Sequence record: OR167180 | Source: Escherichia phage MIZ4 | Direction: 5' to 3' (one strand) | DNA length: 64,000 nt | Shown: piece by piece, positions 5,389-37,493 of the stretch | Layout: every line of letters begins with the position of its first letter | How positions within the stretch are numbered: the stretch's first letter is position 1 | Made by a program: the position numbers and the translations under genes | The notes under the pieces: model-generated | The model's input: only the letters and a program-made list of their open reading frames with translations | The model's database searches: none | What the model was told of the DNA's origin: nothing

Positions 5389-6858
5389 CTATTCCCCATT
5401 ACCATTATACTTTCTTTGCTTAGTTATCCACACTCTAACCATCTCTACTGATTCACCGTCAGAGGGATCAAGAGTTTTTCCTTTTTTCTTCATGCGGTAC
5501 TTAAATCCGTTAAATCTTGCATTCTCTTGCTCGTTAAAGTCGAACATCTTTTTAAATGATTTTCTCCCTTTACGCTCACCGCATTCTAGCGGAATCATTC
5601 GGTCTGTTATTACATTGGCATTAGGTAGAAACGTTTTTAGATAATCTACCAACGCCCAATCAGGAACATATAGATTAACATTCTCCTTGCTCTCGTTGTC
5701 TCTCAGGTTACAACGCAAACATAATTGAAATGCTGGTTCCAGATAATCAGACACATGACGCGCTTTCAAAAACTCATTTGTCGGGAGATCACAACTATTA
5801 GCAAGACCTTTTAAAATATCAATCTCCCATCGTTGAGGGTTAAAGCTGAACATCACAGCAACATTTTTATGATGAATGTAAGAGTTAAGACCATAAGATC
5901 CGTAAGGTATCCGCTCACCAATACCATTTGTACACGCTTCACGGTCCCGATTCACGGTATAAATGAAGTCATCACCACATTCATTTTTAACCATATCAAC
6001 CAGACGTTCAAAGGTATTGTTTGTTTCTGACTGGTGACGCGACCATCGTTCGGAGTCCGTCATAAGGATGATGTTAACTCTATCTGTATTTTTATACTCT
6101 TTGAAATATAGTCTGGATTCTAGCGCACTCGGAACAAAATCGCAATTTGCATAGTATCGTAGATACTTCCCACTATATGTATCAAAGAGATTTGCACATG
6201 CTATCGTAACCTTTTTAAAGTCTCCCCACGTACCGTGTTTGTTATCGTTCAAGAAAACAATTTTCGACCCATTCTTCCGGTGGCCTTCGTTATGTTTTAC
6301 CATAACGTTGATTTTCTTCTCTAATAACGCCTCATAAAGCCCTCTAAGAGAAGAATCGATCATATCAGTACCATCCTTTGCACTTTCTATCTTTTCTTTG
6401 ATAGCGGCCTTCTCAGAGTCTTTTAGAACTAAGTTCTGTAGGCATTCCGATTCGTCGGCGATTGGTTCGCAATGCTTCGTGATAAGTTCAAGATTAGACT
6501 TAAACGGATACTCATTAAATTCAACCAGTTGAGGAACTTCATCAATGTAAAGAGCATAATCACCAAACATTTTTGAACGTTCCATATTAGATAACGCTGT
6601 ATGTGTAATGAATATCACATCAGCACCATCTTTAACTGATTGCATTATCGACGCTTGCACTGTCTTAAGGCTTCTTAGTCTTGTGCTATCAATCAAGACA
6701 GCACGACCGCCCATTCTTTTAAACTTATTGTAAGATTGTTCACTTAAAACACGAGATGGCGAAGCAATAACCGCTTTTTCTTTTGTCTCTAGGACGTGGG
6801 AAAGTATAGCATCAGTTTTCCCCGCCGCTGGCAATGCGATTAATGTTTCAATCTTCAT
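5389..6858 (-). CDS. P-loop NTPase of unknown function (489 aa)
   Basis: N-terminal Walker A-like ALPAAGKT and Walker B-like ALYIDEV; remainder Cys-containing with no recognised fold; not resembling T4 alpha-gt. Confidence 0.6.
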   Translation of the reverse strand: MKIETLIALPAAGKTDAILSHVLETKEKAVIASPSRVLSEQSYNKFKRMGGRAVLIDSTRLRSLKTVQASIMQSVKDGADVIFITHTALSNMERSKMFGDYALYIDEVPQLVEFNEYPFKSNLELITKHCEPIADESECLQNLVLKDSEKAAIKEKIESAKDGTDMIDSSLRGLYEALLEKKINVMVKHNEGHRKNGSKIVFLNDNKHGTWGDFKKVTIACANLFDTYSGKYLRYYANCDFVPSALESRLYFKEYKNTDRVNIILMTDSERWSRHQSETNNTFERLVDMVKNECGDDFIYTVNRDREACTNGIGERIPYGSYGLNSYIHHKNVAVMFSFNPQRWEIDILKGLANSCDLPTNEFLKARHVSDYLEPAFQLCLRCNLRDNESKENVNLYVPDWALVDYLKTFLPNANVITDRMIPLECGERKGRKSFKKMFDFNEQENARFNGFKYRMKKKGKTLDPSDGESVEMVRVWITKQRKYNGNGE

Positions 6859-7326: not shown

Positions 7327-7584
7327 AATCTCCCTCAGTTCTTTATAGCCTCCAATGTGCTCGTTGTCAATGAATATCTGGGGGTATACAAATCGGAGGC
7401 TCTTTGAGTTCAGCCTCCCCGCCAGTTCTTCAATCATATCACGGTCGGGAATAATGTCAACCCCAACCTGCTTGAATACTGGTTTAAGTGTATACGGAAT
7501 ACCCAGATCATCCAGTAGCTTCATTGCACTAATACAACCATAACAATGATAAGCCTCTTTCGGTATGCCGTATATCTCGATCAT
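7315..7584 (-). CDS. nrdH: Glutaredoxin-like protein (NrdH-like redoxin)
   Basis: CxxC motif HCYGC near N-terminus, YPQIF and IGGYKEL motifs typical of glutaredoxin fold; positioned near nrdG/nrdD as in T4. Confidence 0.6.
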   Translation of the reverse strand: MIEIYGIPKEAYHCYGCISAMKLLDDLGIPYTLKPVFKQVGVDIIPDRDMIEELAGRLNSKSLRFVYPQIFIDNEHIGGYKELREIYDY

Positions 7585-8102
7585 TTCTCAGCCTTTAATC
7601 TTTCTAGTTCTTCTTCCAGTTCCTTGATCCGTTGGTCACGTTCAAAGTCACGCTGCAACTTAGTGGCGAATACTCGTTTAAACTGATTGTAATCATCGAT
7701 TTTAAACACTTCTTCTTCGCCATAGCGACGCACAGAAACTTCGTAGTTGTTGAAAAATTGTTCCAACATTGCATCAGTAGTCAGTTCTGACGACACCACT
7801 TTAAAATAACGTTCTTCGGATTGCAAAAACCAGTTGTGCGCGTATTCCCGTACATCATCAACATCTCGACAGGTGTATGTTTTTCCATCAATTTCAATCG
7901 CAGAAACATATTCGATATCTGATGCAATTTTTTCAAAAGCGATAACTTTAAATGTACGGTCACCGATAAAGTCTGCTATTGCATCATTTGCAACACTGGT
8001 TGCAAAGGCTTTCCGCGCTCGCTCGTTTTTCCACTGATAGGTCATACCAACAACAAACATATTACCATCAACAAACATATTACCATCCTCGCTCTTTACC
8101 AA
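7581..8102 (-). CDS. Hypothetical protein, member of paralogous family A/B with C-terminal coiled coil
   Basis: Shares VGMTY.WK, IEIDGKTYT and ERYFKVV blocks with the ORFs at 8080-9922 and 14285-16374; C-terminal RIKELEEELERLKAEK coiled coil. Confidence 0.55.
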   Translation of the reverse strand: MVKSEDGNMFVDGNMFVVGMTYQWKNERARKAFATSVANDAIADFIGDRTFKVIAFEKIASDIEYVSAIEIDGKTYTCRDVDDVREYAHNWFLQSEERYFKVVSSELTTDAMLEQFFNNYEVSVRRYGEEEVFKIDDYNQFKRVFATKLQRDFERDQRIKELEEELERLKAEK

Positions 8103-8904
8103 TCAAAAATTCAACTTCACGACGTTTAATGTCTTCTTGAAGGTCTTTAATCTTCTGGCGATCTTGCATTATTTCGTCCATCTTGTCAAGTGCTGCGATG
8201 AAATCATCGAAACGTTCAAAGGTTTTACCTTCATTTGCTTCGCCAAATTTAACCATTGTCAGGCCGTAACGACTACTAAACAGACGTTTCAACTGTCCAA
8301 CGATTTTAGAATCAGTGGTTATAACTTCCAATTCTTCTACTTCACGAAAGAATTTTCTATCAGAATCAATAAACCAGCTAGTTCCTTTATGGTTGCTATC
8401 TTCGGTTGCACTCATTAGAGTATGGTCTTTACCATCAATTTCAATTACATCAATTTGCCCACATGGACGAACATTTTTAACAGTAAAAGGTCTATAATTT
8501 ATTGCTCGTGCAATAACATAATTAAGATTAGATACGTTTTCAGCATAATGGCAGAAGTCGGTCATAGCATTCACGTCTTTCCAAGTATAAGTTTTACCAA
8601 CTTCCCATTTCTGGGGAACTTCTTCAACTTCACGAAAGAATTTTCTATCGAATGGACTAAAGAAATATGTTGCAGTCCAAATGTCTTTTCCTGTAGCAGT
8701 TTTCGCCGTATGATAAACACCGTCTAGCTCTATTGCATTAATCCAACCGTTGCCATCGATCTCGATGATGGTAAATGGCTTGTCACCAATAGCTGCACTA
8801 ATATCGCTGTTAAGTGGAGAAAGAACACCTTCTCCGTTAGTAATAAACTCAGTTTTAGCGTTTACATCTTTCCAAGTGTAAGTTTTACCAATTTCCCATT
8901 TCAT
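8080..8904 (-). CDS. Hypothetical protein with two tandem copies of the family A domain
   Basis: Internal duplication: MKWEIGKTYTWKDVNA...FDRKFFREVEE and KWEVGKTYTWKDVNA...DRKFFREVEE; C-terminal coiled coil. Confidence 0.6.
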   Translation of the reverse strand: MKWEIGKTYTWKDVNAKTEFITNGEGVLSPLNSDISAAIGDKPFTIIEIDGNGWINAIELDGVYHTAKTATGKDIWTATYFFSPFDRKFFREVEEVPQKWEVGKTYTWKDVNAMTDFCHYAENVSNLNYVIARAINYRPFTVKNVRPCGQIDVIEIDGKDHTLMSATEDSNHKGTSWFIDSDRKFFREVEELEVITTDSKIVGQLKRLFSSRYGLTMVKFGEANEGKTFERFDDFIAALDKMDEIMQDRQKIKDLQEDIKRREVEFLIGKERGW

Positions 8905-8916
8905 AATATATTCCCC

Positions 8917-9396
8917 TTAACCGATTTTATCAAGTTCGTTTAATGCTTTCTCAGCTTCCTGTATAGCTTGCACCCTTTCCGGCATTTTGTCAAGAAAATC
9001 TTTCAACTCTTCAAAACTGGAGATATGACGCAAGGCATTAGCACCGATAGCCGCATGTGATTTGCATTCAAAGCGAATTTTATAATTATCCATAGCCAAT
9101 TTGAGAAGATCAATTAATTTAGATTCTTCTGGAATAATAATTTCTTCAAATCTGCTACGGTCATGATCCAGAAACCAACAAGATAGACCTACATCGGTTG
9201 AACTCATATAAGTTCCATCATGAAGATAAACAGACCGCACGTATCCTTTTTTCGCATCAACCGACGCAACTTTAAACGGTAATCGCAGATATTTCAAATA
9301 ATCAACATCATACCATTTAAAAAATTGATTTGCATCTTTTACATCTTTCCACGCATAGGTCTTACCAGCTTCCCATTTCATAATATCATCTCTCAT
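8917..9396 (-). CDS. Hypothetical protein, family A paralog
   Basis: N-terminus MKWEAGKTYAWKDV; C-terminal coiled coil LKDFLDKMPERVQAIQEAEKALNELDKIG. Confidence 0.6.
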   Translation of the reverse strand: MRDDIMKWEAGKTYAWKDVKDANQFFKWYDVDYLKYLRLPFKVASVDAKKGYVRSVYLHDGTYMSSTDVGLSCWFLDHDRSRFEEIIIPEESKLIDLLKLAMDNYKIRFECKSHAAIGANALRHISSFEELKDFLDKMPERVQAIQEAEKALNELDKIG

Positions 9397-9922
9397 TTTT
9401 GATACGTGATTCTAATTGGATCATACGGTCGCGCGTTTGTTTGTATTCTCGGATAGCACCGATCCGGCTAGGCATACCATCCAGTACGCTCTTAATACCT
9501 TCTAGGGTAGTAATTTTGGCAATGCTATTATGTAACCCCATCTTATCGATCAACTGAATGTCGTAGGCTTCCATAAGCAGACCCAGGCGTTCTAAAGTTA
9601 GGTCTTCTTCTTTTTCTTCCGAATCTGGAATCTTATGTTCAATAGTAACTTCGGTAAAGAAACGACGCTCACCCGACCAAAACCACACGCCGGAACAGCC
9701 AATAGGGGATTCTTTTAACGTCATAGAGTCGAAATTACTACCAATAATAGTAATTTCTCTAACATCACCATCATCGTCAAGGTCTTCTACCCTAAACGGG
9801 CGACCAGCCAACAAGTCAACAATACATCTGTTAATAGACGACGAAAATTTAGTCAGTTCGGCTTTCGACGCTTCGCATTCAATCTTGTAAGTTTTACCAA
9901 CTTCCCATTCCATAATAATCAC
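9386..9922 (-). CDS. Hypothetical protein, family A paralog
   Basis: N-terminus MEWEVGKTY; RRFFTEV block; C-terminal coiled coil. Confidence 0.6.
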   Translation of the reverse strand: MIIMEWEVGKTYKIECEASKAELTKFSSSINRCIVDLLAGRPFRVEDLDDDGDVREITIIGSNFDSMTLKESPIGCSGVWFWSGERRFFTEVTIEHKIPDSEEKEEDLTLERLGLLMEAYDIQLIDKMGLHNSIAKITTLEGIKSVLDGMPSRIGAIREYKQTRDRMIQLESRIKNER

Positions 9923-9923
9923 C

Positions 9924-10433
9924 TCAAATAATTTTCACTGGAATACTATTAACAATCTTGTATTGTACTTGATTGTCAGACCCCCGCCACGGCTTCTTCG
10001 TTGGCATATCTTTAATATAACGCCCATCGATGAACATGTCAACTGATTCTACAATTTTTCTTTGCTCATCATTCAATTGGTCAAGGGTATAACCAGACCA
10101 TAGCCAAATATCTTTATTTGGCATCCATGATTTTACTTCATCGATGATCCGCTGTACACCCTTTAAATTGCGTTTATACAGTGGATCGCCACCTAAGAAT
10201 GTTAGCCCCTGAATAAAATCAGGTCTAAGCAGATCCAGAATCAATCCCATTGTATCATCGGTGAATGGTTCCCCGTTCTTAGGATTGAGTAGGCTAGCAT
10301 TAAAGCAACCATCACATGCGTGTGAACATCCGGTAACGTAAAGGGAGACTCTCACTCCCTCACCGTTCACCATATCACAATCTTTAATATCGGCATAGCG
10401 TAGTTTGCCGTATGTATCAGAACTCATATTCAA
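9924..10433 (-). CDS. nrdG: Anaerobic ribonucleotide reductase activating protein NrdG (radical SAM)
   Basis: CxxxCxxC radical-SAM cluster motif CSHACDGCFN; LTFLGGDPL and KDIWLWSGY blocks match recalled T4 NrdG. Confidence 0.9.
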   Translation of the reverse strand: MNMSSDTYGKLRYADIKDCDMVNGEGVRVSLYVTGCSHACDGCFNASLLNPKNGEPFTDDTMGLILDLLRPDFIQGLTFLGGDPLYKRNLKGVQRIIDEVKSWMPNKDIWLWSGYTLDQLNDEQRKIVESVDMFIDGRYIKDMPTKKPWRGSDNQVQYKIVNSIPVKII

Positions 10434-10569
10434 TTACCCCGAACTCGTTTACAATCTGCGCTTTATAGTAACCACCGCGAGATGCTAATAGATAAGCTGG
10501 GCTTAGGTATTCGTATTCACGGATTTCTACTTGTGCGTTTTCAGTTTCCCAAATCAGTAAAGTCCACAT
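10417..10569 (-). CDS. Hypothetical small protein (~50 aa)
   Basis: Track ORF 10417-10644 trimmed to the ATG that follows the conserved GGAGAATCAAAT leader; the longer reading runs through the upstream promoter cassette. Confidence 0.4.
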   Translation of the reverse strand: MWTLLIWETENAQVEIREYEYLSPAYLLASRGGYYKAQIVNEFGVIEYEF

Positions 10570-10644
10570 ATTTGATTCTCCTGTAAAGTTGTATCTCGTC
10601 TTGATGAATATAGTATAGGGGATCTCGTGATCCCCGTCAAGCAT

Positions 10645-11178
10645 TTATTTTAAATTTTTTCGAATGTATTCAGACCATTCCTTCCCTGTCATTTCGGACC
10701 CATTCTGGAAACTGAAATATTCATACGGCATCGAGTCAAGATAAAACAGGATCATACATCGCGCCATATAATACCAATCACGATTAAAGTAAACTACGTT
10801 ATCGCCAGTACCATCAACCCCTTTATCATAACCATCGCGGGTACGGGCGACCCATTGAATAGTATCAGTTTTCTCACGGATAGTAACAGGTTCCCAATAT
10901 CCAGCACATCCAGCATGACCACACGAACAAGTAAGGAAATATTGACCTTTTGCTTTGTTGTCATCCCATTCACGATGAATTGGTTTGATTTCGTGAAACA
11001 GTGCCAAACAATCATGATTATGCAACACTGGCTTACCATCAATCAATGCATGGAATGTATACAAACGACCCGTAGACAAATAGCTATCCTCACGCTCAAC
11101 CAGTTCAATAGCAATCTTTTTAGCTCGTTCTTTGTGTCGTTGTGCTTTACGTTTACGGTTTAATGATTTCATAGTCAC
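10645..11178 (-). CDS. Hypothetical Cys/His-rich protein (177 aa)
   Basis: ORF track; HNHDC and CSCGHAGC clusters suggest metal binding; no confident family. Confidence 0.55.
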   Translation of the reverse strand: MTMKSLNRKRKAQRHKERAKKIAIELVEREDSYLSTGRLYTFHALIDGKPVLHNHDCLALFHEIKPIHREWDDNKAKGQYFLTCSCGHAGCAGYWEPVTIREKTDTIQWVARTRDGYDKGVDGTGDNVVYFNRDWYYMARCMILFYLDSMPYEYFSFQNGSEMTGKEWSEYIRKNLK

Positions 11179-11189
11179 CTCACATTATT

Positions 11190-11729
11190 TCAAAGATCGC
11201 GATATTGTACATTATGAAAATGAGAACTTGCATTACCAATATTGTAGATAACAAATTCTTCATCCGGCGCTTGCGCTACAAATTGAGTATGAGCAACCGC
11301 TACGACTTTAAAAATACGATCCGTGATCTTGTGCTTAATTTCTGCCCCTACTTCCATAGGAACATATTCATTTGTTTCTGTTTCAGTCGCAAAACAGCCA
11401 TCTTCTTCATAAGCACGAACAAATCGGTCGCAATCAGTACGCTTAACAAATTCAAGAGTATATAATTCTCGTGAATTGTCGGTATAGACCAATACAGAAT
11501 TATTATGATAGCGAATCACATACAGGTTATTATCATCGTCAATTACGCAAAAGCTACGGATTCCTTCGCCTTGACTCCAGCAGACATTAACCACCGTTCC
11601 TCTAATAAAAAAACTTTCCTTTAAATTAAAACTAGTCAATGTGCTAGCGTGCATTTTAACAACAACACCATCACCAATTTCCAGTTTACGAAGTTTAACT
11701 TCTTTGCTCAGTACACAAAACATCATCAT
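11190..11729 (-). CDS. Hypothetical protein (179 aa)
   Basis: ORF track; start MMMFCVLSK directly after promoter cassette at 11758-11786. Confidence 0.55.
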   Translation of the reverse strand: MMMFCVLSKEVKLRKLEIGDGVVVKMHASTLTSFNLKESFFIRGTVVNVCWSQGEGIRSFCVIDDDNNLYVIRYHNNSVLVYTDNSRELYTLEFVKRTDCDRFVRAYEEDGCFATETETNEYVPMEVGAEIKHKITDRIFKVVAVAHTQFVAQAPDEEFVIYNIGNASSHFHNVQYRDL

Positions 11730-11789
11730 GTTGTCCTCTCGTTGTTTTCGATGTGAGCATTATACATTAGCTAATCATATTGTCAACAC

Positions 11790-11821
11790 CCCAAAACGAA
11801 AAGCCGACCCTTTCGGATCGG
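11790..11821 (-). terminator. Intrinsic terminator downstream of nrdD
   Basis: Hairpin GCCGACCC-TTTCGG-ATCGGC at 11802-11821 followed on the minus strand by TTTTCGTTTTGG. Confidence 0.6.
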
Positions 11822-11828
11822 CTAAAAA

Positions 11829-13691
11829 TTACATGTGCTTAACGCGGTTTACCATCTCGGAGTGTTTCCCGTGGTTGAATGGACGCAGATCAACAGATCC
11901 AAGATATCCACTAACGCGACGGATAACATTCATCTTTTCCAGATTGTCATTGCCGCAATCAGGACAAACAAAACCAGACTCGGTCGCTCTCATTTCCTTA
12001 GTAGATCCGCATACATGACATACATCAGAAGGAGTATTAACACCGAAGTAGTGCAATTTATCCATTGCATAATCGACTACAGTTTCAAGACCTTTCAGGT
12101 TGTTTTTCATGTCTGGGAACTCAACATAAGAGATCATGCCACCGGACGCCAGCCAGTGATAATCTTTCTCAAAGTCGATTTTCTCAAATGGAGTGACTTT
12201 CCGGTCTACGTCAAGGTGGAATGAGTTTGTGTACCAGTCTTTATCGGTAGCACCCTTAACAATACCAAACTGCTCTCTGTCCAGTCGATTAAATCGATAG
12301 CAAAGGCTCTCGGCTGGCGTACCGTAAAGACTAAACCCAAGTCCGGTTTCGTCCTTCCATTTTTCAGTATAATGACGCAAGATCTTAAGAATATGTTTAC
12401 CGTATCGCTGCGCATCTTCCGAATCAAACGGATGAACACCAAACAGGACGCTCAATACCTCATGTAAACCAATATATCCAAGAGAGATACTAGCGCGACC
12501 ATCTTTCAACACTTCCAAAATTTCATCGTTTTGATGAATACGGAAAAATGCACCTTCTGTATACAGCACCGGAGCAACATTGGCTTTAGCCCCTTTTAAA
12601 GCGTCTACGCGACTCATGAGCGCATCAAAGCAAATATGCATACGATTAGCTAGCTCTTGTTCGAATAGCTCAATTCTGCGCATTACAGACGCTTTACCAG
12701 CACGACGAGCGGCAATAAGGGCAATACGCGGAAGATTCAGAGTCACAACACCTAAGTTATTACGTCCGTCTAATACTTCCTCGCCTTTCTCATTATGCCA
12801 CACACCCAGGAAGCTACGACAACCCATCGGGCTAACCGGAACACTAGATCCAGTGATGCTACGGTTATTCTTCGCAGAGATATAATCAGGGTAAAGACGC
12901 TTACTAGAACATTCCAATGCAAGTTGCTTAATGTCGTAGTTCGGATCTTCCGGTTTAAGGTTTAATCCTTCTTCTAAGAACATCACCAGCTTAGGAAACA
13001 CCGGAGTGATACCATCTTTACCTAAACCTTTAGTTCGAACGTTCAGGATCGCTTTCTGAATCAGTTTTTCTTCCCAGCTAGTACCCATACCAAAGGTTAA
13101 AGTCACAAAAGGCGTTTGACCGTTGGTGGAGAACAAAGTGTTGATTTCATATTCCAACGCTTGATACCCGTCTAGCGTTTCTTTTTCTGTCTTCTCTTGT
13201 GCATAGAGAGTATCAGCTTTGATTCCGTAGGTCTCGGCATCAGCAAGGTGTTTATGATATGTTTTCTCAACGTATGGCGCTAAAACCTGATCGATGTTTG
13301 CAATTGTGGTCCCGCCATATTGATGACTTGCCACCTGTGCGATAATTTGAGCGGTTACAGCACAAGCAACGCCGATTGATTTCGGACTTTCGATTTGTGC
13401 GCTACCCAATTTAAAACCATTCTCTAACATGTCTTTGAGATTAACAAGACAGCAGTTAGTAAACGGCATAGCGGGTGCATAATCCATATCATGATAATGA
13501 ATGTCACCGTCTACATGCGCTTTATAGATGTGCTCAGGTAACACGGTTTTAGCAATCTGTTTAGACACAGCACCAGCAATCAGATCTCGACGTGTCGGGA
13601 ATGTTCGCGCGTCTTTGTTCGCGTTCTCTTTGCTTACTTCGTTTTCTTTACCCGTTGCGATCTCTGTAATGTCTTTGATTAGTTTTTCCAT
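11829..13691 (-). CDS. nrdD: Anaerobic ribonucleoside-triphosphate reductase NrdD (glycyl radical enzyme), uninterrupted
   Basis: 620-aa ORF aligns along its length with recalled T4 NrdD; C-terminal zinc ribbon CHVCGS...CPDCG and glycyl radical motif RRVSGYLG; no intron (T4 nrdD carries a group I intron). Confidence 0.95.
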   Translation of the reverse strand: MEKLIKDITEIATGKENEVSKENANKDARTFPTRRDLIAGAVSKQIAKTVLPEHIYKAHVDGDIHYHDMDYAPAMPFTNCCLVNLKDMLENGFKLGSAQIESPKSIGVACAVTAQIIAQVASHQYGGTTIANIDQVLAPYVEKTYHKHLADAETYGIKADTLYAQEKTEKETLDGYQALEYEINTLFSTNGQTPFVTLTFGMGTSWEEKLIQKAILNVRTKGLGKDGITPVFPKLVMFLEEGLNLKPEDPNYDIKQLALECSSKRLYPDYISAKNNRSITGSSVPVSPMGCRSFLGVWHNEKGEEVLDGRNNLGVVTLNLPRIALIAARRAGKASVMRRIELFEQELANRMHICFDALMSRVDALKGAKANVAPVLYTEGAFFRIHQNDEILEVLKDGRASISLGYIGLHEVLSVLFGVHPFDSEDAQRYGKHILKILRHYTEKWKDETGLGFSLYGTPAESLCYRFNRLDREQFGIVKGATDKDWYTNSFHLDVDRKVTPFEKIDFEKDYHWLASGGMISYVEFPDMKNNLKGLETVVDYAMDKLHYFGVNTPSDVCHVCGSTKEMRATESGFVCPDCGNDNLEKMNVIRRVSGYLGSVDLRPFNHGKHSEMVNRVKHM

Positions 13692-13702
13692 TGTATCACC
13701 TA

Positions 13703-13726
13703 TGAAAAAGCGGGATTTCTCCCGCT
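13703..13726 (-). terminator. Hairpin/weak terminator between ORF 13736-14230 and nrdD
   Basis: AGCGGGA-TTTCT-CCCGCT hairpin at 13709-13726 followed on the minus strand by a 5-nt U run. Confidence 0.4.
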
Positions 13727-13735
13727 CGTTGATAG

Positions 13736-14230
13736 TTATTTTACCAGTTCTGCTAATTCTTTTTCCGCCGCTTCCAGTTCAGCTTTAAGCTGTTTAATCT
13801 CTTGTCGCTTCTTATTAGCGGCTTCCTGCTTACTATTTCGGATAACCTGATCTAGATACAACTCCCAATCCTGAATATTTTTGATAATGTATCCGTCAAC
13901 ATTAATTGGTCGGAGATTCAGTACAGCTTCCAGTTTAGTCGCAAAAACTTTAATTGCTGGTGTGAAGTATTCATATTCGTTATCTTCAAACCAATAACCT
14001 AGACTTGCATTATCAATACGAAGACGAAGTTTAAGATCAAGGTCTTTATCGTCGGTGTAAAGATCTTTCACCTGCCCCATCGAGCTAACAACAACTTTAA
14101 AACGAATTTTATCTACACCGCCAAAAACATCTTCAAGAATATCAGCAATTGAGCTATTAGCGCAAGATTGGTCGCTGAATGCGTCAAGGTTTTCTTTAGT
14201 TACAGTATACCAAACATCTTGTACCCACAT
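13736..14230 (-). CDS. Hypothetical protein with C-terminal coiled coil (164 aa)
   Basis: ORF track; C-terminal KQLKAELEAAEKELAELVK; weak resemblance to family A/B. Confidence 0.55.
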   Translation of the reverse strand: MWVQDVWYTVTKENLDAFSDQSCANSSIADILEDVFGGVDKIRFKVVVSSMGQVKDLYTDDKDLDLKLRLRIDNASLGYWFEDNEYEYFTPAIKVFATKLEAVLNLRPINVDGYIIKNIQDWELYLDQVIRNSKQEAANKKRQEIKQLKAELEAAEKELAELVK

Positions 14231-14260
14231 AATATAATCCTCTCGTTGTTAAGTGGGAGT

Positions 14261-14288
14261 ATTATAGCATACTCCCTTCGCATGTCAA
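14261..14288 (-). promoter_or_regulatory. Sigma70-type early promoter (repeated cassette) for ORF 13736-14230
   Basis: Minus-strand TTGACA (14283-14288), 16-nt spacer, TATAAT (14261-14266); -10 lies inside palindrome GGGAGTAT..ATACTCCC. Confidence 0.5.
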
Positions 14289-15463
14289 GCACTAACTTTT
14301 TTCTTTACTGCTTTCACCTTCTGGCGAATTGCTCGAATCTCTTCGATCTCTTTTTCAGTATCTTTAACAATTTCTTTGCGATTCTGAATATCTTTATCGA
14401 GATTATCATCAAGTTTAGGCAGCATGTCAATCAAGAACTTTTTAAGGTCTTTCAGGTTGCGAATAACAGTACCTTCACCCATTACCGCCACGCCTACACC
14501 ATCCGGCAGATCACCAAACAGTTTAACCAGTTCAGACAGATGATCATGATCTTCTAGTGCTTCTTCCGGTTCAGATGGCAGTTCAACAAAGTAATAACGT
14601 TCATCATTGCTGATCAGGTGATACCAGCAAAGCCCAAAAGATTTAGGAGTATATTCTACACCACCAACTTCAACTGCGTCAACACTTCCATAATCATCTA
14701 CTTTAGTTACCTTAAATCCTTGTCCCAGCTTTTGAACAATTTCAACAACATGACTTGATACAGTTTCAGCGGTAAACCAATATGGCAAATTATGCTGATT
14801 TGGCTTGTAGCGTTCACCTACTTTAAATCTCTGACCAGCCGCTTGCATAGAATGAAATTGTTGTTTCGTGATTTCCGCGAAGTATTCAAATTCGCCACCA
14901 TCAAACACACAAGCCCATTGATCACAAAAACGATCTGCCTTAACAGTTTCACCTTTCGCGGTGATCATGGTAGCTGATCCGTGCAATTCTTCTTCAACTA
15001 AAAAGCCATATTCGACAAAATCAACAAGTTTCATAGCTTCTTTGTGATCTGGATCATGCTCTCCCCAGAATCGCTTAAATTCTTGCAAACCTTCTGGGGT
15101 AAACGAATAACATTTACCTTTTTCAAAGTAAGTCGGCATTGCATCCTCTTTCTTGTTCATCGCTTCGTATGCCTCTTTTGAGATGCGTTTAAAGTATTTA
15201 CGCTCATTGTGCATAATCATAGTAGCCCAATAATCAACAATATCATTAGCGGAATAAACTACATCTCCAGCTTCAATAGTAATAACATGACCGTGGTCAT
15301 CTTTTTCTAATACTTTAAAGCCCTTTTCTACGATTTCAGCAACTCGAATATGACCACGGCGCGAAGCATCGGTCAGAATAATTGAATAGCGAGAAAAGTC
15401 TAGAAACTCATCTTTACCGCCTTCACGGAATGCATAGTAATGACCTTCAAAGAATTTAGCCAT
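14285..15463 (-). CDS. Hypothetical protein (392 aa), family B, several domain repeats plus C-terminal coiled coil
   Basis: Contains NERKYFKRISK block shared with 15527-16105, and repeated F.KG..Y.F / GFKV..VD..G modules. Confidence 0.6.
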   Translation of the reverse strand: MAKFFEGHYYAFREGGKDEFLDFSRYSIILTDASRRGHIRVAEIVEKGFKVLEKDDHGHVITIEAGDVVYSANDIVDYWATMIMHNERKYFKRISKEAYEAMNKKEDAMPTYFEKGKCYSFTPEGLQEFKRFWGEHDPDHKEAMKLVDFVEYGFLVEEELHGSATMITAKGETVKADRFCDQWACVFDGGEFEYFAEITKQQFHSMQAAGQRFKVGERYKPNQHNLPYWFTAETVSSHVVEIVQKLGQGFKVTKVDDYGSVDAVEVGGVEYTPKSFGLCWYHLISNDERYYFVELPSEPEEALEDHDHLSELVKLFGDLPDGVGVAVMGEGTVIRNLKDLKKFLIDMLPKLDDNLDKDIQNRKEIVKDTEKEIEEIRAIRQKVKAVKKKVSA

Positions 15464-15526
15464 AATATAATCCTCTCGTTGTTTAGATGGGAGTATCTTA
15501 CTACTCCCGTTTCATCATGTCAAGCG

Positions 15527-16105
15527 TTAAAGTGACTTTTTAATCTCTTTCAGTTCTTCCACTTTCTCGGCGCTGAATTTAGCGTAGGTATCATGTCGAA
15601 TAATTTCACTTTCAAGAAAGGTTTCCAGTCGAGATCTATTTTCAATAAGGAACTCTTTCAGGTCTTCCGCGTTCTTGACAAAGATTTTATTGTCGGTAAT
15701 GTCATCTTCAATCGCAAAGGAGATAGAGCGAACTTTACCAAACAAGTTAATCAGATCTTCCAGAGATTCTTCTTTCTTAACTGGTTTCATTTCTTCAAAC
15801 TGCTTTTTAGTGATGCGTTTAAAGTATTTGCGCTCGTTTGCAGCAATCAGAACAGATGCACCTTCATACCCATGAGTTTCTACCAGATACACACGCCCCA
15901 TCGCATCAACAGTGAGAACTTTAAAGCCGTTACAAAGCACGTCATACAAGAACTTATTATGTTGCGGACATCGTTTGATAAATTCTGCGGCTGTTTCTGC
16001 ACTACGGAAAGTGTAATAACGACCTCGTTCAAAAACAGCATCATTTGAAGACTTAGCCGGATACAATTTATACATTTTCTGTACCATAATATAATCCTCT
16101 ATCAT
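15527..16105 (-). CDS. Hypothetical protein (192 aa), family B paralog
   Basis: GRYYTFRS...GFKVLTVDAMGRV...ANERKYFKRITKKQFEEM; C-terminal coiled coil. Confidence 0.6.
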   Translation of the reverse strand: MIEDYIMVQKMYKLYPAKSSNDAVFERGRYYTFRSAETAAEFIKRCPQHNKFLYDVLCNGFKVLTVDAMGRVYLVETHGYEGASVLIAANERKYFKRITKKQFEEMKPVKKEESLEDLINLFGKVRSISFAIEDDITDNKIFVKNAEDLKEFLIENRSRLETFLESEIIRHDTYAKFSAEKVEELKEIKKSL

Positions 16106-16374
16106 TTCACTAATTGAACAGCACGAAACAGAATGCGGTCACACGGAAGCAGCATAAATTCCCAACGCGGATCAAAGTCTTTAGCGGTGTATGTTTTCCC
16201 ATCAACAGAGATTTCACTTACATAACCAATAGGTGACACTTTAAGAACAGTAAATCCATTCTTGATTGCTTCGTAGGTATCTTTCAGACCTTCGTAGTCA
16301 TCCTCTAGGAAGTCTTTACGTGCTTGCTCAGATTTAAAAACATAGGCCACACCAGCTTTAAACATCTTACGCAT
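16102..16374 (-). CDS. Hypothetical protein (90 aa), single family A/B domain
   Basis: FKAGVAYVFKS...GFTVLKVSPIGYVSEISVDGKTYTAKDF...ILFRAV. Confidence 0.55.
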   Translation of the reverse strand: MRKMFKAGVAYVFKSEQARKDFLEDDYEGLKDTYEAIKNGFTVLKVSPIGYVSEISVDGKTYTAKDFDPRWEFMLLPCDRILFRAVQLVK

Positions 16375-16437
16375 TGTTGATTCTCCTTCTTGATTAGATG
16401 GGAGTATTTTACTACTCCCGTTTCATGTTGTCAACTC

Positions 16438-16926
16438 CTATCTTAATCTTTGTATGAATTGTTTCTTATACTTCTTCGTGATTTCTTCTCGTGTATCAGC
16501 GTCGCAGTATTCGAAACCTTCTGCGTCCATAATATCAACCATCTCCGCGCGTGTCAAGCGTGAAAATCGTTTTACTTTATCAACAGCATATTGAGGATGT
16601 AAATGATTGTTGGTGTAGTCTCCTTTGATGTAATTAACATAGTTTGTAGCCCAAACAACGAAATCAGCACCTAAAGCACCAACACCAAACCGTTTAAAGT
16701 CTCCGGTCAACGATCCTTCTAGGCGGTTGCAACACGAATGAAGCAATCCCCTTACGCGGCCTTGCCCTTTCCCATCTAGATCATGATCATGGTCAAGATG
16801 GTTTTTGCTCATATCCTCAAAAAGTGGCAATTGACAAAGGGGGCAAATGCCCCCCTGTTTTTCGAATAGTTCTTGTTTGTACTCTTTAGCACTCTTAGCA
16901 GTCAGTAACATAAATTCACCCTCCAA
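16438..16926 (-). CDS. 49: Endonuclease VII (Holliday junction resolvase gp49)
   Basis: NHLDHDHDLDGKGQGRVRGLL, KGDYTNNHLHP and FSRL blocks match recalled T4 endo VII; zinc-binding Cys pattern. Confidence 0.9.
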   Translation of the reverse strand: MEGEFMLLTAKSAKEYKQELFEKQGGICPLCQLPLFEDMSKNHLDHDHDLDGKGQGRVRGLLHSCCNRLEGSLTGDFKRFGVGALGADFVVWATNYVNYIKGDYTNNHLHPQYAVDKVKRFSRLTRAEMVDIMDAEGFEYCDADTREEITKKYKKQFIQRLR

Positions 16927-33141: not shown

Positions 33142-33480
33142 TCACACCTTTAAAGTCATAGACGCATAAACATTAATGCCAGGCCAGTTAGGATCGCAAT
33201 TATACTCAACATCCCACAAATAAAGCGGTTTAGATGTATCAGCCAAGTTTTTAAAATCTTCTACCCACATTTCAAGGCTATATGATGGATAAACTAGGCT
33301 ATCATATCCGCCGTAACGTTGGCCTACTGGTCGGTCAGTAAAAACTACATCAAGATCCGGTAATTCTTTTTCAAGGATAACCGCCAGCGCATAAATCAGA
33401 CGGTCTTCCTTGTTACGCTGCCGTAGGACCGTTGTCAGTTGGTTTTTCTGGTTCACTAGCAAGCACCTCCACATTTTCAC
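33142..33480 (-). CDS. Hypothetical protein (112 aa)
   Basis: ORF track; overlaps upstream ORF by ~68 nt so start uncertain. Confidence 0.45.
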   Translation of the reverse strand: MKMWRCLLVNQKNQLTTVLRQRNKEDRLIYALAVILEKELPDLDVVFTDRPVGQRYGGYDSLVYPSYSLEMWVEDFKNLADTSKPLYLWDVEYNCDPNWPGINVYASMTLKV

Positions 33481-33733
33481 AGAATGAAATTTTCACAGAC
33501 ACAATTTTACCATAAGTGAAGAATGAATATACATTATCGATATATTCAACGTCACCTACAATCACATCAAACTGCGGATCAGCAACCGCCGCAACATATT
33601 CTACCAGTTCATCAAGAGAATGCAACTTAATTTCATCAATTCGGCTGTATTTGGTTGCATCTTTGATTTTAAAACCACGTTCTTTCAGCTTATCAATTAG
33701 AATTTCACGCGGAGTTTCAAACAGTTTGCTCAT
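33413..33733 (-). CDS. Hypothetical protein (106 aa)
   Basis: ORF track. Confidence 0.5.
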   Translation of the reverse strand: MSKLFETPREILIDKLKERGFKIKDATKYSRIDEIKLHSLDELVEYVAAVADPQFDVIVGDVEYIDNVYSFFTYGKIVSVKISFCENVEVLASEPEKPTDNGPTAA

Positions 33734-33755
33734 AGTATAATCCTCACATAGTTAA

Positions 33756-37044: not shown

Positions 37045-37422
37045 TTAAGAATATTTTACTTCGTCTACAATGTCTTTCATGACATTGATTTCCATTCCGG
37101 TCAGAACACGTTGGAACATGTGCTGCACATACGCTTTCAGGTATTCATTTGATGGCTTACTATCGAAAGTCTTTTTAGTGTAGTAGTCATCACCGAAAGC
37201 TACTGTAATTACATTTTCGTCGTCGTTCCAAGCGATATAAGCAAATTTGCCGTTATCCCAGAAGCGAGCACTAATTGCTACTTTTGTTGAATCGAATCCT
37301 ACTTCGCTGTGAGATTCAAGAACTACTTGCGTACCAGTTTCTTTATGAATGTAGTAGCGGGATACTAAGTCAAAGTTACGGGTGTAGTGACATTCGAATT
37401 TATCTTTAAACATCATCATCAT
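37045..37422 (-). CDS. Hypothetical protein (~125 aa)
   Basis: Trimmed to MMMMFKDKFECHY, the ATG after the GGAGAATCAAA leader; the track start at 37491 runs through the promoter. Confidence 0.5.
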   Translation of the reverse strand: MMMMFKDKFECHYTRNFDLVSRYYIHKETGTQVVLESHSEVGFDSTKVAISARFWDNGKFAYIAWNDDENVITVAFGDDYYTKKTFDSKPSNEYLKAYVQHMFQRVLTGMEINVMKDIVDEVKYS

Positions 37423-37459
37423 TTTGATTCTCCTAAGTGTGTTTCGTTTCGATATGTGC

Positions 37460-37488
37460 ATTATGCTATAGTCGTTTATGGTTGTCAA
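37460..37488 (-). promoter_or_regulatory. Sigma70-type early promoter cassette
   Basis: Minus-strand TTGACA (37483-37488), 17-nt spacer, CATAAT (37460-37465), immediately downstream of terminator hairpin. Confidence 0.55.
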
Positions 37489-37493
37489 CACCT

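What the first reader, a model, noticed from the sequence alone, without database searches (positions are those of the whole stretch)
7581..16374. Expanded family of paralogous small proteins (WE-GKTY-WKDV domain plus coiled-coil tail) in two tandem clusters flanking nrdG/nrdD
At least seven genes (7581-8102, 8080-8904, 8917-9396, 9386-9922, 14285-15463, 15527-16105, 16102-16374, possibly 13736-14230) share a ~90-aa module with conserved blocks ([WF]E.GK.Y.[WF]K, GF.V..VD..G, [ND]ER.[YF]F..V); individual members carry subsets of these. Two members contain internal tandem duplications, and most end in a charged coiled coil. Amplification of one domain to about 10 copies within 9 kb of an otherwise compact phage genome suggests a diversifying accessory function such as host-takeover, exclusion or anti-defence. 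I do not recognise the domain.
Basis: seen in the sequence. Interest (0 to 1): 0.68.

Follow-up and report, generated by a model that had tools for sequence, protein, structure and literature searches.

The report
Expanded GoF-like early-gene family in phage
Eight neighbouring genes of this RB49-like coliphage are real, old paralogs of the enigmatic T4 early protein GoF; this phage group has far more copies of the domain than other phages, and related isolates swap individual copies as precise cassettes.

Summary
The window is Escherichia phage MIZ5 (Krischvirus, RB49-like). Eight minus-strand genes flanking nrdG/nrdD carry 11 copies of one ~90-aa module: 14285-15463 has three, 8080-8904 has two, and the rest have one. 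A profile built from six copies finds the others at E 4e-15 to 3e-4.

The domain is recognisable. It is the N-terminal domain of T4 GoF (hhalign 96%, E 4e-9) and Frd.2. Kim et al. 2025 described this family as an 'LSm-like'/SH3-like barrel of unknown wild-type function. Two of the eight genes are already annotated 'goF mRNA metabolism modulator'.

The following appear to be new:
- The family is expanded to 9 genes and 12 modules in the genome, against 3 in T4. A consensus tblastn finds about 8 places per Krischvirus record and about 1 in most other phages.
- The modules are only 16-36% identical to each other, so the expansion is old.
- Among isolates that are 98-100% identical in core genes, single modules are replaced at module-precise breakpoints (42-66% identity, dS 0.9-2.0) while the C-terminal tails stay about 95% identical.
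- Known PeSL promoter/stem-loop cassettes precede three of the genes.

The function remains inferred. I favour early host-takeover adaptors acting on RNA metabolism, with anti-defence as a serious rival.

The parts
7581..8078 (-). g7581, 165 aa: one GoF-like module (about 7785-8063) plus a charged helical tail
   Evidence: Annotated CDS. HMM E 4e-35. phrog_5347 E 2e-53. The module region is 65-77% identical in RB49, E26 and JK32, against 94-95% for the tail.
8080..8904 (-). g8080, 274 aa: two tandem modules (a 8617-8904, b 8329-8613) plus a tail
   Evidence: Two HMM domains, E 1e-38 and 1.5e-41. Modules a and b are 54% identical. Phage E26 lacks module b. Module b is replaced in FL04 and JK32.
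8917..9381 (-). g8917, 154 aa: one module (9133-9381) plus a tail
   Evidence: HMM E 4.5e-30. The module is dimorphic in 58 isolates (28 at >=95% identity, 29 at <60%), while the tail is >=95% in all 58.
9386..9913 (-). g9386, 175 aa: one module (9635-9913), a disordered linker, then a helix, a beta-hairpin and a long helix
13736..14230 (-). g13736, 164 aa: one divergent module (13961-14230) plus a tail with clear heptad periodicity
   Evidence: HMM built without it gives E 2.8e-4. Cross-hit to phrog_3710 at 2.3e-5. Heptad test p=0.015. The JK32 allele has 49% module identity and 80% tail identity.
14285..15463 (-). g14285, 392 aa: three modules (a 15173-15457, b 14861-15127, c 14573-14833) plus a tail. 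Its RB49 ortholog is named frd.2 and annotated 'goF mRNA metabolism modulator'
   Evidence: Three HMM domains. phrog_8944 E 5e-213. RB49 annotation. The AlphaFold2 model is poor (pLDDT 61), so nothing can be said about how the modules pack.
15527..16087 (-). g15527, 186 aa: one basic module (15785-16039, pI 9.4) plus a tail. It looks like g14285 without modules b and c
   Evidence: HMM E 1e-6. Collinear alignment with g14285 module a and tail. pI. Orthologs have two tail allele classes (93-98% versus 56-61%). One metagenomic relative encodes module and tail as separate genes.
16102..16374 (-). g16102, 90 aa: a module only, with no tail
   Evidence: HMM E 2e-32. phrog_16115.
16375..16441 (-). 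PeSL-type cassette upstream of g16102: sigma-70 promoter (TTGACA-17-TAAAAT) with a 7-bp stem-loop GGGAGTA/TACTCCC over the -10 box, then a Shine-Dalgarno sequence
   Evidence: 76% identical over 79 nt to the cassette at 15445-15523. Element type described in PMC2839356.
15464..15530 (-). PeSL-type cassette upstream of g14285
14231..14297 (-). PeSL-type cassette upstream of g13736 (perfect TTGACA-16-TATAAT with TG, and a stem-loop over the -10 box)
8550..9918 (-). Four copies of a 69-nt DNA repeat (8550-8618, 8841-8909, 9318-9386, 9850-9918). Each covers the start of a cluster-1 module (at three of the four also the ribosome-binding site) and encodes the MKWE.GKTY.WKDV block
   Evidence: family D1, 65-78% DNA identity. 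Together with the conserved tail it brackets the exchangeable part of each module.

Best explanation
SHOWN: identity of the genes.
The eight genes are Krischvirus paralogs of the T4 early proteins GoF and Frd.2. Each carries one to three copies of the GoF N-terminal domain, an SH3-like beta-barrel of about 90 aa with two helices inserted after strand 1. Seven of the eight continue through a disordered linker into a small helix, a hairpin and a long charged helix.

SHOWN: evolution of the array.
- The array arose by old tandem gene duplications and internal module duplications.
- All 56-58 sequenced Krischviruses keep it.
- Individual modules are replaced between near-identical phages at breakpoints that coincide with module borders, while the tails stay constant.

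INFERRED: expression.
The genes are transcribed early by host sigma-70 RNA polymerase. Cluster 2 has its own PeSL promoter/stem-loop cassettes. Cluster 1 is probably co-transcribed with nrdG. The proteins are cytoplasmic.

INFERRED: mechanism I commit to.
Each protein is a host-takeover adaptor. The variable barrel is the specificity surface, and the constant tail provides self-association or docking. By homology with GoF, the process acted on is post-transcriptional: stability or Rho-dependent truncation of phage early and middle mRNAs. Most modules are acidic, so I think they bind a host RNA-metabolism protein rather than naked RNA. The basic g15527 module is the best candidate for direct RNA binding.

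LIKELIHOODS: family membership about 0.95; module-cassette exchange about 0.9; early expression about 0.75; action on RNA metabolism about 0.3.
For: Family membership:
- A profile of window modules hits T4 GoF at E 7.8e-11 and Frd.2 at 3.8e-4. With a wider profile these become 1.5e-16 and 9.2e-8, and MotB.1 scores 6e-3.
- hhalign gives GoF 96% (E 3.8e-9) and Frd.2 82%.
- PHROG cross-hits include the 'goF' families 2980, 8944 and 13003.

Fold:
- The module is modelled at pLDDT about 90, followed by a disordered linker.
- Foldseek finds 64 uncharacterised viral relatives.

Link to GoF function:
- GoF(D25Y) stabilises gene 41 mRNA post-transcriptionally (PMC12152347).
- In my alignment D25 follows the near-invariant F of helix 1, and G84 lies in the ERxYF block.
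- Four of the 11 modules have an aromatic residue at the D25 position.

Early expression:
- Consensus sigma-70 promoters precede g16102, g14285, g13736 and g8080.
- No late TATAAATA motif lies on that strand.
- The PeSL structure is present. PeSL promoter and attenuator activities were shown experimentally in phi1/RB49 (PMC2839356).

Cassette exchange.

Expansion:
- MIZ5 has 9 genes and 12 modules against 3 genes in T4.
- Consensus tblastn finds 8 places per Krischvirus record against about 1 elsewhere.

Acidity: module pI is 4.2-6.2, except g15527 (9.4) and g8917 (7.8).
Against: - No wild-type member of the family has a demonstrated activity. Wild-type GoF and MotB.1 had little effect in the mRNA reporter, and pull-downs of GoF recovered only GoF itself (PMC12152347).
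- The Krischvirus tails are not detectably related to the GoF or Frd.2 C-terminal parts, so function may have diverged.
- Promoters are consensus matches only.
- Tail self-association is untested, and heptad periodicity is weak in most tails.
- The copy-number comparison uses a consensus biased towards Krischvirus sequences.
Confidence: 0.4

Rival explanations
1. Counter-defence or host-range array. Each barrel neutralises, or evades recognition by, a variable host defence or prophage-encoded exclusion factor. The alternative module alleles are kept in the population by frequency-dependent selection.
For: - Module-precise allelic replacement occurs in otherwise 98-100% identical phages.
- The g8917 module shows a near 50:50 dimorphism over 58 isolates.
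- Allele lineages are ancient (dS 0.9-2.0) yet under purifying selection.
- The T4 homologs are dispensable on laboratory strains (PMC12152347).
- The genes sit in a hyperplastic region with mobile PeSL cassettes (PMC2839356).
Against: - No similarity to any known defence component was found (PADLOC: none convincing). Known anti-defence proteins were not screened.
- No member has a defence-related phenotype.
- The only genetics for the family (goF suppressors of rho alleles) points to RNA metabolism.
- Mosaicism is general in T4-type hyperplastic regions. The unrelated neighbour c11190 also has a divergent allele.
Confidence: 0.25
2. General protein-binding takeover factors unrelated to RNA. 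SH3, Tudor and KOW-type barrels commonly bind peptides or protein surfaces. The paralogs would each sequester a different host protein, for example a transcription, replication or metabolic factor, and nrd-linked functions are possible given their position.
For: - The nearest folds are protein-binding barrels: FeoA, the PcrA/UvrD Tudor domain that binds RNA polymerase, KOW, and Mib repeats.
- Most modules are acidic.
- The genes are abundant-early-protein-like and carry strong promoters.
Against: - GoF pull-downs found no host partner (PMC12152347).
- Linkage to the nrd genes is not seen in T4, where family members sit elsewhere.
Confidence: 0.2
3. Largely dispensable 'ORFan' passengers. The genes persist and multiply mainly because PeSL-mediated recombination duplicates and moves them, with little contribution to phage fitness.
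For: - PeSL repeats flank g16102 plus g15527, and PeSL mini-circle formation is documented (PMC2839356).
- Module number varies (E26 lacks g8080 module b), and a split g15527 exists.
- Loss of the T4 homologs gives no phenotype.
Against: - All eight genes are kept, in the same order, in the RB49, E26, JK32 and FL04 loci compared, and the whole region is covered in 55 of 58 Krischvirus records.
- dN/dS is 0.2-0.6 even between very old alleles.
- Motif residues are conserved across paralogs that are only 16-36% identical.
- Cluster 1 has no PeSLs between its genes.
Confidence: 0.1
4. The shared blocks are chance similarity among unrelated small acidic proteins.
For: Pairwise identities are low (16-36%).
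Against: Cross-validated profile E-values reach 4e-15. Independent PHROG cross-hits support the relationship. A search of 1.8 billion proteins returns 85 clusters, most of them 120-190-aa proteins that match from residue 1. The fold prediction is consistent.
Confidence: 0.01

Closest known systems
T4 GoF (comC-alpha), 141 aa early protein
   Same: The N-terminal ~90-aa domain is homologous over its full length (hhalign 96%, 84 columns). Both are acidic. The sites of both rho-suppressor mutations fall in blocks conserved in the window modules. The predicted fold and its nearest PDB neighbour (FeoA) are the same (PMC12152347).
   Different: GoF is a single-module, single-copy gene next to gene 39. 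MIZ5 has no family member at that locus. GoF has an acidic linker and a short C-terminal piece with no long charged helix, and the tail profile does not hit it.
T4 Frd.2 / Pfam PF03197 (FRD2)
   Same: Homologous module (hhalign 82%; HMM 9.2e-8). The RB49 ortholog of g14285 was named frd.2 by its annotators.
   Different: No window protein reaches PF03197, even at E<=1, whereas T4 Frd.2 scores 5e-39. Frd.2 has one module, against three in g14285.
T4 MotB.1 (third member of the Kim et al. 2025 family)
   Same: Weak partial profile match to the first half of the module (HMM 6e-3; hhalign 10%).
   Different: Too distant to place by sequence here. Its relationship rests on the published structure predictions.
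SH3-like barrels: FeoA, Tudor, KOW, and LSm/Hfq
   Different: There is no sequence relationship and Foldseek finds no PDB hit below E 0.1. Two helices are inserted between strands 1 and 2. There is no N-terminal Sm helix, no Sm1/Sm2 motif, and no evidence of ring formation.
PeSL promoter/stem-loop cassettes of RB49 and phi1 (Arbiol et al. 2010, PMC2839356)
   Same: The intergenic elements before g16102, g14285 and g13736 have the described make-up: a sigma-70 consensus promoter, a stem-loop overlapping the -10 box, a Shine-Dalgarno sequence and a start codon.
   Different: PeSLs explain whole-gene shuffling. The exchanges seen here are within genes, at module borders, and also occur in cluster 1, which has no PeSLs between its genes.

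Membership tests
GoF/Frd.2/MotB.1 family (Kim et al. 2025) | N-terminal ~85-90-aa domain related by sequence profile to the GoF and Frd.2 N-terminal domains | tested here: met
   Window-only HMM: GoF 7.8e-11, Frd.2 3.8e-4. Wider HMM: 1.5e-16 and 9.2e-8. hhalign: 96% and 82%.
GoF/Frd.2/MotB.1 family (Kim et al. 2025) | Predicted bent antiparallel beta-sheet barrel whose nearest solved neighbours are FeoA-type SH3 domains | tested here: met
GoF/Frd.2/MotB.1 family (Kim et al. 2025) | Flexible linker followed by a C-terminal domain of variable structure | tested here: met
   Residues 93-103 of g9386 have pLDDT below 50, followed by a helix, a hairpin and a long helix. The tails are not related to the GoF tail.
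GoF/Frd.2/MotB.1 family (Kim et al. 2025) | Early expression in a T4-type phage | tested here: inconclusive
   The phage is a straboviral Krischvirus. Consensus sigma-70 promoters and PeSLs lie upstream, and there is no late promoter motif. No expression data were available.
GoF/Frd.2/MotB.1 family (Kim et al. 2025) | Effect on mRNA level or stability (shown only for the GoF D25Y mutant) | not testable with these tools
   This needs the reporter or RT-qPCR assay of PMC12152347.
Pfam PF03197 FRD2 | Score above the gathering threshold (29 bits) | tested here: not met
   No hit for any of the eight proteins at E<=1. T4 Frd.2 scores 133 bits.
LSm/Hfq | Sm sequence motifs (Pfam LSM or Hfq models) | tested here: not met
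   No such Pfam hit at E<=1. No PDB sequence relative.
LSm/Hfq | N-terminal helix followed by five strongly bent strands, with Sm proteins among the nearest folds | tested here: not met
LSm/Hfq | Ring-shaped homo-oligomer | not testable with these tools
   Only monomer prediction was available. The three-module model was too poor to judge packing.
FeoA | Sequence membership (Pfam FeoA) and linkage to feoB | tested here: not met
   No Pfam hit. There is no feoB in the neighbourhood. The similarity is at fold level only.
PeSL cassette (Arbiol et al. 2010) | Sigma-70 consensus promoter plus an overlapping or adjacent stem-loop plus a Shine-Dalgarno sequence, repeated in hyperplastic regions of RB49-type phages | tested here: met
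   Three elements have a 7-8-bp stem over the -10 box. There is a 79-nt direct repeat at 76% identity.
Known anti-phage defence or exclusion proteins (PADLOC) | Match to a defence-system protein model | tested here: not met
   The only hit is a 13-bit, E 0.0096 match of g8080 to CARF_PIN.

The most novel reading that the evidence does not exclude
The Krischvirus GoF-like array is a combinatorial specificity system. A constant tail (scaffold or docking part) carries swappable SH3-like barrels, and conserved DNA patches at module borders let phages exchange single barrels. This would retarget a post-transcriptional takeover or counter-defence activity to variable host factors. Paralogs that naturally carry an aromatic residue at the GoF D25 position would be the 'active' RNA-stabilising forms that T4 reaches only by mutation.
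Probability: 0.2. Interest if true: 0.7.

Novelty: new variant of a known kind. Interest (0 to 1): 0.42.

Why it matters
GoF has been a puzzle since the 1970s: an abundant early T4 protein known only through suppressors of host rho alleles. The family it belongs to was recognised only in 2025, and no wild-type function is known.

RB49-type phages offer a natural experiment that T4 lacks:
- nine paralogs;
- two- and three-module proteins;
- a module-only protein;
- a basic module among acidic ones;
- natural variants at the position of the gain-of-function mutation;
- pairs of almost isogenic phages that differ in a single module.

Each of these can be put directly into the published reporter assay or into host-range tests.

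The module-precise cassette exchange also shows recombination operating at domain rather than gene level in T4-type hyperplastic regions.

Tried and rejected
- Pfam, NCBIfam and PADLOC scans of the eight proteins gave nothing usable.
- A PDB sequence search with the module profile gave only weak, chance-level hits (best E 0.0026). Foldseek against PDB gave no hit below E 0.1.
- The AlphaFold database library was not available.
- The search for related loci failed with the module alignment because no conserved stretch was long enough. With a three-module metagenomic protein it found nothing.
- The search for homologous proteins with the module profile returned only 7 proteins, a limit of its word index.
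- The AlphaFold2 model of the three-module protein was too poor (pLDDT 61) to test whether modules pack into an arc or ring.
- Two further window ORFs with marginal HMM scores were checked. 37048-37491 is rejected (hhalign 1.6%). 33416-33751 is unproven (31%, partial).
- A common origin of all seven tails could not be shown. Leave-one-out profiles recover only two of them.
- Variant modules are not copies of other paralogs. Each is closest to its positional ortholog, so gene conversion between loci is rejected for the sampled phages.
- dN/dS between paralogs was not attempted because synonymous sites are saturated.
- Long metagenomic proteins (1,000-2,300 aa) with repeated 30-residue matches to the strand 2-3 hairpin of the profile were not examined; I take them to be unrelated repeat proteins.
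- One literature search on 'goF' was swamped by 'gain of function' papers.

Full report
**Source and layout**

The region is 100% identical to Escherichia phage MIZ5 (OR167181.1, Krischvirus, Straboviridae) and 94-97% identical to RB49, phi1 and about 55 other isolates. All genes in the region lie on the minus strand.

The order, in the direction of transcription, is:
- gene 49;
- g16102, g15527, g14285, g13736 (cluster 2);
- nrdD;
- two unrelated ORFs;
- nrdG;
- g9386, g8917, g8080, g7581 (cluster 1);
- nrdH.

Yes.
- BLASTP links the eight proteins in a network of significant pairs, and control ORFs from the same region give nothing below E 0.1.
- A profile built from six modules only (cluster 1 plus g16102) recovers the remaining proteins. 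g14285 scores E 4e-15, g15527 scores 1e-6 and g13736 scores 2.8e-4. The search set was all 623 ORFs of the window, and the best unrelated ORF scored 0.059.
- Iteration resolves 11 modules: three in g14285, two in g8080, and one in each of the other six.
- A search of 1.8 billion representative proteins with the module profile returns 85 clusters. Most are 120-190-aa proteins that match from residue 1. About ten are two-module proteins and two are three-module proteins.

Minor corrections:
- The 'coiled coil' is only partly supported. AlphaFold2 predicts a long charged helix. Heptad periodicity is convincing only in g13736.
- A common origin of all seven tails is not demonstrable by leave-one-out profiles.

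**What is it?**

PHROGs places the proteins in phrog_5347, 8944, 16115 and 15067. They cross-hit about 18 further PHROGs, three of which are labelled 'goF mRNA metabolism modulator'.

Sequence evidence for the link to T4:
- The window-derived profile hits T4 GoF (E 7.8e-11) and T4 Frd.2 (3.8e-4).
- With a profile widened by metagenomic relatives these become 1.5e-16 and 9.2e-8, and MotB.1 appears at 6e-3.
- hhalign gives 96% probability for GoF over 84 columns and 82% for Frd.2.

These three T4 proteins are exactly the family defined by Kim et al. 2025 (PMC12152347). That paper describes an N-terminal 'LSm-like' five-stranded barrel, a flexible linker and a variable C-terminal part. The family is conserved in T4-like phages, and its wild-type function is unknown. 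Amber mutants of all three genes and deletions of goF and motB.1 grow normally, and GoF is abundant early in infection. Only the GoF(D25Y) suppressor stabilises gene 41 mRNA.

Structure evidence:
- My AlphaFold2 model of g9386 is confident for the module (pLDDT about 90) and has a disordered linker at residues 93-103.
- Foldseek finds no PDB hit below E 0.1.
- Foldseek finds 64 uncharacterised viral relatives. They come from Aeromonas, Edwardsiella, Proteus, Morganella, Pectobacterium, Citrobacter and Serratia phages, and from phAPEC8- and CBB-type phages.
- I would call the fold SH3-like. The specific LSm features were tested and not met.
- Pfam has a model only for Frd.2 (PF03197), and the window proteins do not reach it.

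**Size of the expansion**
- T4 has three dispersed single-module genes.
- MIZ5 has the eight window genes plus a ninth at MIZ5 89661-90296, just downstream of gene 41 (hhalign 92%). That makes 12 modules.
- MIZ5 has no family member at the T4 goF locus beside gene 39.
- A tblastn with the profile consensus finds the module in 911 of 50,697 phage records. Krischviruses show 8 places per record and almost all others show 1. The consensus is biased towards Krischvirus sequences, so this comparison understates other genera.

**Age and history**
- Modules are 16-36% identical to one another, no closer than they are to GoF. The exception is the g8080 pair at 54%. The expansion is therefore old and has been maintained.
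- g15527 aligns with module a and the tail of g14285, as if modules b and c had been inserted or deleted.
- Phage E26 has a one-module g8080.
- One metagenomic relative encodes the g15527 module and tail as two separate genes.

**Unexpected result: module-precise cassette exchange**

I compared MIZ5 with RB49, E26, JK32 and FL04.
- Core genes (gp55, nrdH, nrdG, nrdD, gp49, dam) are 97-100% identical, with dS of 0.02-0.28.
- Family genes drop to 63-89% identity in a different subset of genes in each phage.
- The divergence sits in the module. For example, g8917 is 42% identical in the module and 96% in the tail. E26's single g8080 module is 94% identical to MIZ5 module a, module b is missing, and the tail is 99% identical. 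g9386 in FL04 is 45% against 85%.
- Module dS is 0.9-2.0 against tail dS of 0.04-0.24 in these cases, and dN/dS is 0.2-0.6. These are ancient allele lineages, not recent positive selection.
- A 60-nt sliding comparison shows identity falling from 97-100% to 30-65% and back, exactly at module borders. Each module behaves independently.

Across all 58 isolates:
- The g8917 module is dimorphic: 28 records at >=95% identity and 29 below 60%. Its tail is >=95% in all 58.
- The g9386 module has 5 divergent alleles among 56 records, while its tail is >=90% in all.
- Thirty-six metagenomic g9386 orthologs span 48-97% identity in the module and 87-99% in the tail.

Further points:
- g15527 orthologs have two tail classes instead, so tails can also be exchanged.
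- Variant modules are always closest to their positional ortholog, not to another paralog.
- A 69-nt DNA repeat (65-78% identity) covers the first codons of every cluster-1 module, and the ribosome-binding site at three of the four. Together with the conserved tail it could supply the homology arms for exchange. This is inference.

**Regulation**
- Consensus sigma-70 promoters precede g16102, g14285 and g13736. A weaker one precedes g8080.
- In the first three, a 7-8-bp stem-loop overlaps the -10 box. Two of the elements form a 79-nt direct repeat.
- This matches the PeSL cassettes of RB49 and phi1. Their promoter and attenuator activities, and their role in ORF shuffling through mini-circles, were shown experimentally (PMC2839356).
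- No late promoter motif lies on this strand in the region. Early expression is therefore likely but not shown.

**Mechanism**

Shown:
- family membership;
- modular architecture;
- maintenance under purifying selection;
- cassette exchange.

Inferred:
- The barrels are specificity surfaces and the tails are a constant self-association or docking part.
- The process targeted is post-transcriptional. This rests on GoF genetics and on my alignment, in which D25 and G84 fall in the two most conserved blocks. Four of the 11 modules carry an aromatic residue at the D25 position, although the alignment around that loop is uncertain.
- Nine of the 11 modules are acidic (pI 4.2-6.2) and only g15527 is basic (pI 9.4). 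I therefore favour binding of a host RNA-metabolism protein over direct RNA binding for most members.

The main rival is a counter-defence or host-range role. The balanced module dimorphism fits it well, but no test here addresses it.

**Novelty**

The genes are deposited and two are labelled goF-like. The family and its fold were published in 2025, and PeSLs in 2010. The searchable literature does not describe the following:
- the Krischvirus-specific expansion;
- the multi-module proteins;
- the Krischvirus-type tail;
- the module-precise allelic replacement.

I rate this a new variant of a known kind, of moderate interest.

Noticed in passing
window 11190-11729 (-): An unknown 179-aa protein (phrog_14838) lies between nrdG and nrdD. 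It is not a family member by HMM (E 0.18) but is also hypervariable: the JK32 allele is 59% identical with dS 1.7. It has its own perfect sigma-70 promoter (11759-11786), placed directly after the nrdD terminator (11802-11823).
   Followed up: partly
MIZ5 genome 89661-90296 (L008:39661-40296, -), outside the window: This is a ninth GoF-like gene (211 aa, phrog_16187; hhalign 92%). It lies immediately downstream of the gene 41 helicase, roughly where T4 has dmd. T4 GoF(D25Y) acts on gene 41 mRNA, so the position is suggestive but may be coincidence.
   Followed up: partly
window 5389-6858 (-): A conserved 489-aa ORF lies between gp55 and 55.2 (phrog_2467, with a weak Pfam DEAD hit recorded for its ortholog). 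It is 99-100% identical among Krischviruses, and T4 has no ORF of comparable size at this position.
   Followed up: no
window 33416-33751 (-): A 112-aa ORF (phrog_16584) has a partial, weak match to the helix 2 to strand 3 part of the module (HMM E about 0.005; hhalign 31%). It may be a remote relative or chance.
   Followed up: partly
L012:4219-4786 (metagenomic Krischvirus contig, Logan SRR22356019): The g15527 ortholog is encoded as two adjacent genes, a 97-aa module and an 89-aa tail. Either separate expression is tolerated or the gene is decaying.
   Followed up: no
search of 1.8 billion representatives: P0087, P0089, P0105, P0108: Very long proteins (1,059-2,281 aa) match 4-10 times, each time on only 20-40 positions around strands 2-3 of the profile. 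They are probably unrelated repeat proteins with a similar beta-hairpin motif.
   Followed up: no
MIZ5 93461-97253 (L008), outside the window: The DNA polymerase gene is annotated in two parts, separated by an HNH endonuclease gene.
   Followed up: no
window about 42000: GC skew changes sign. This suggests a switch from minus-strand to plus-strand genes. Gene orientation there was not checked.
   Followed up: no
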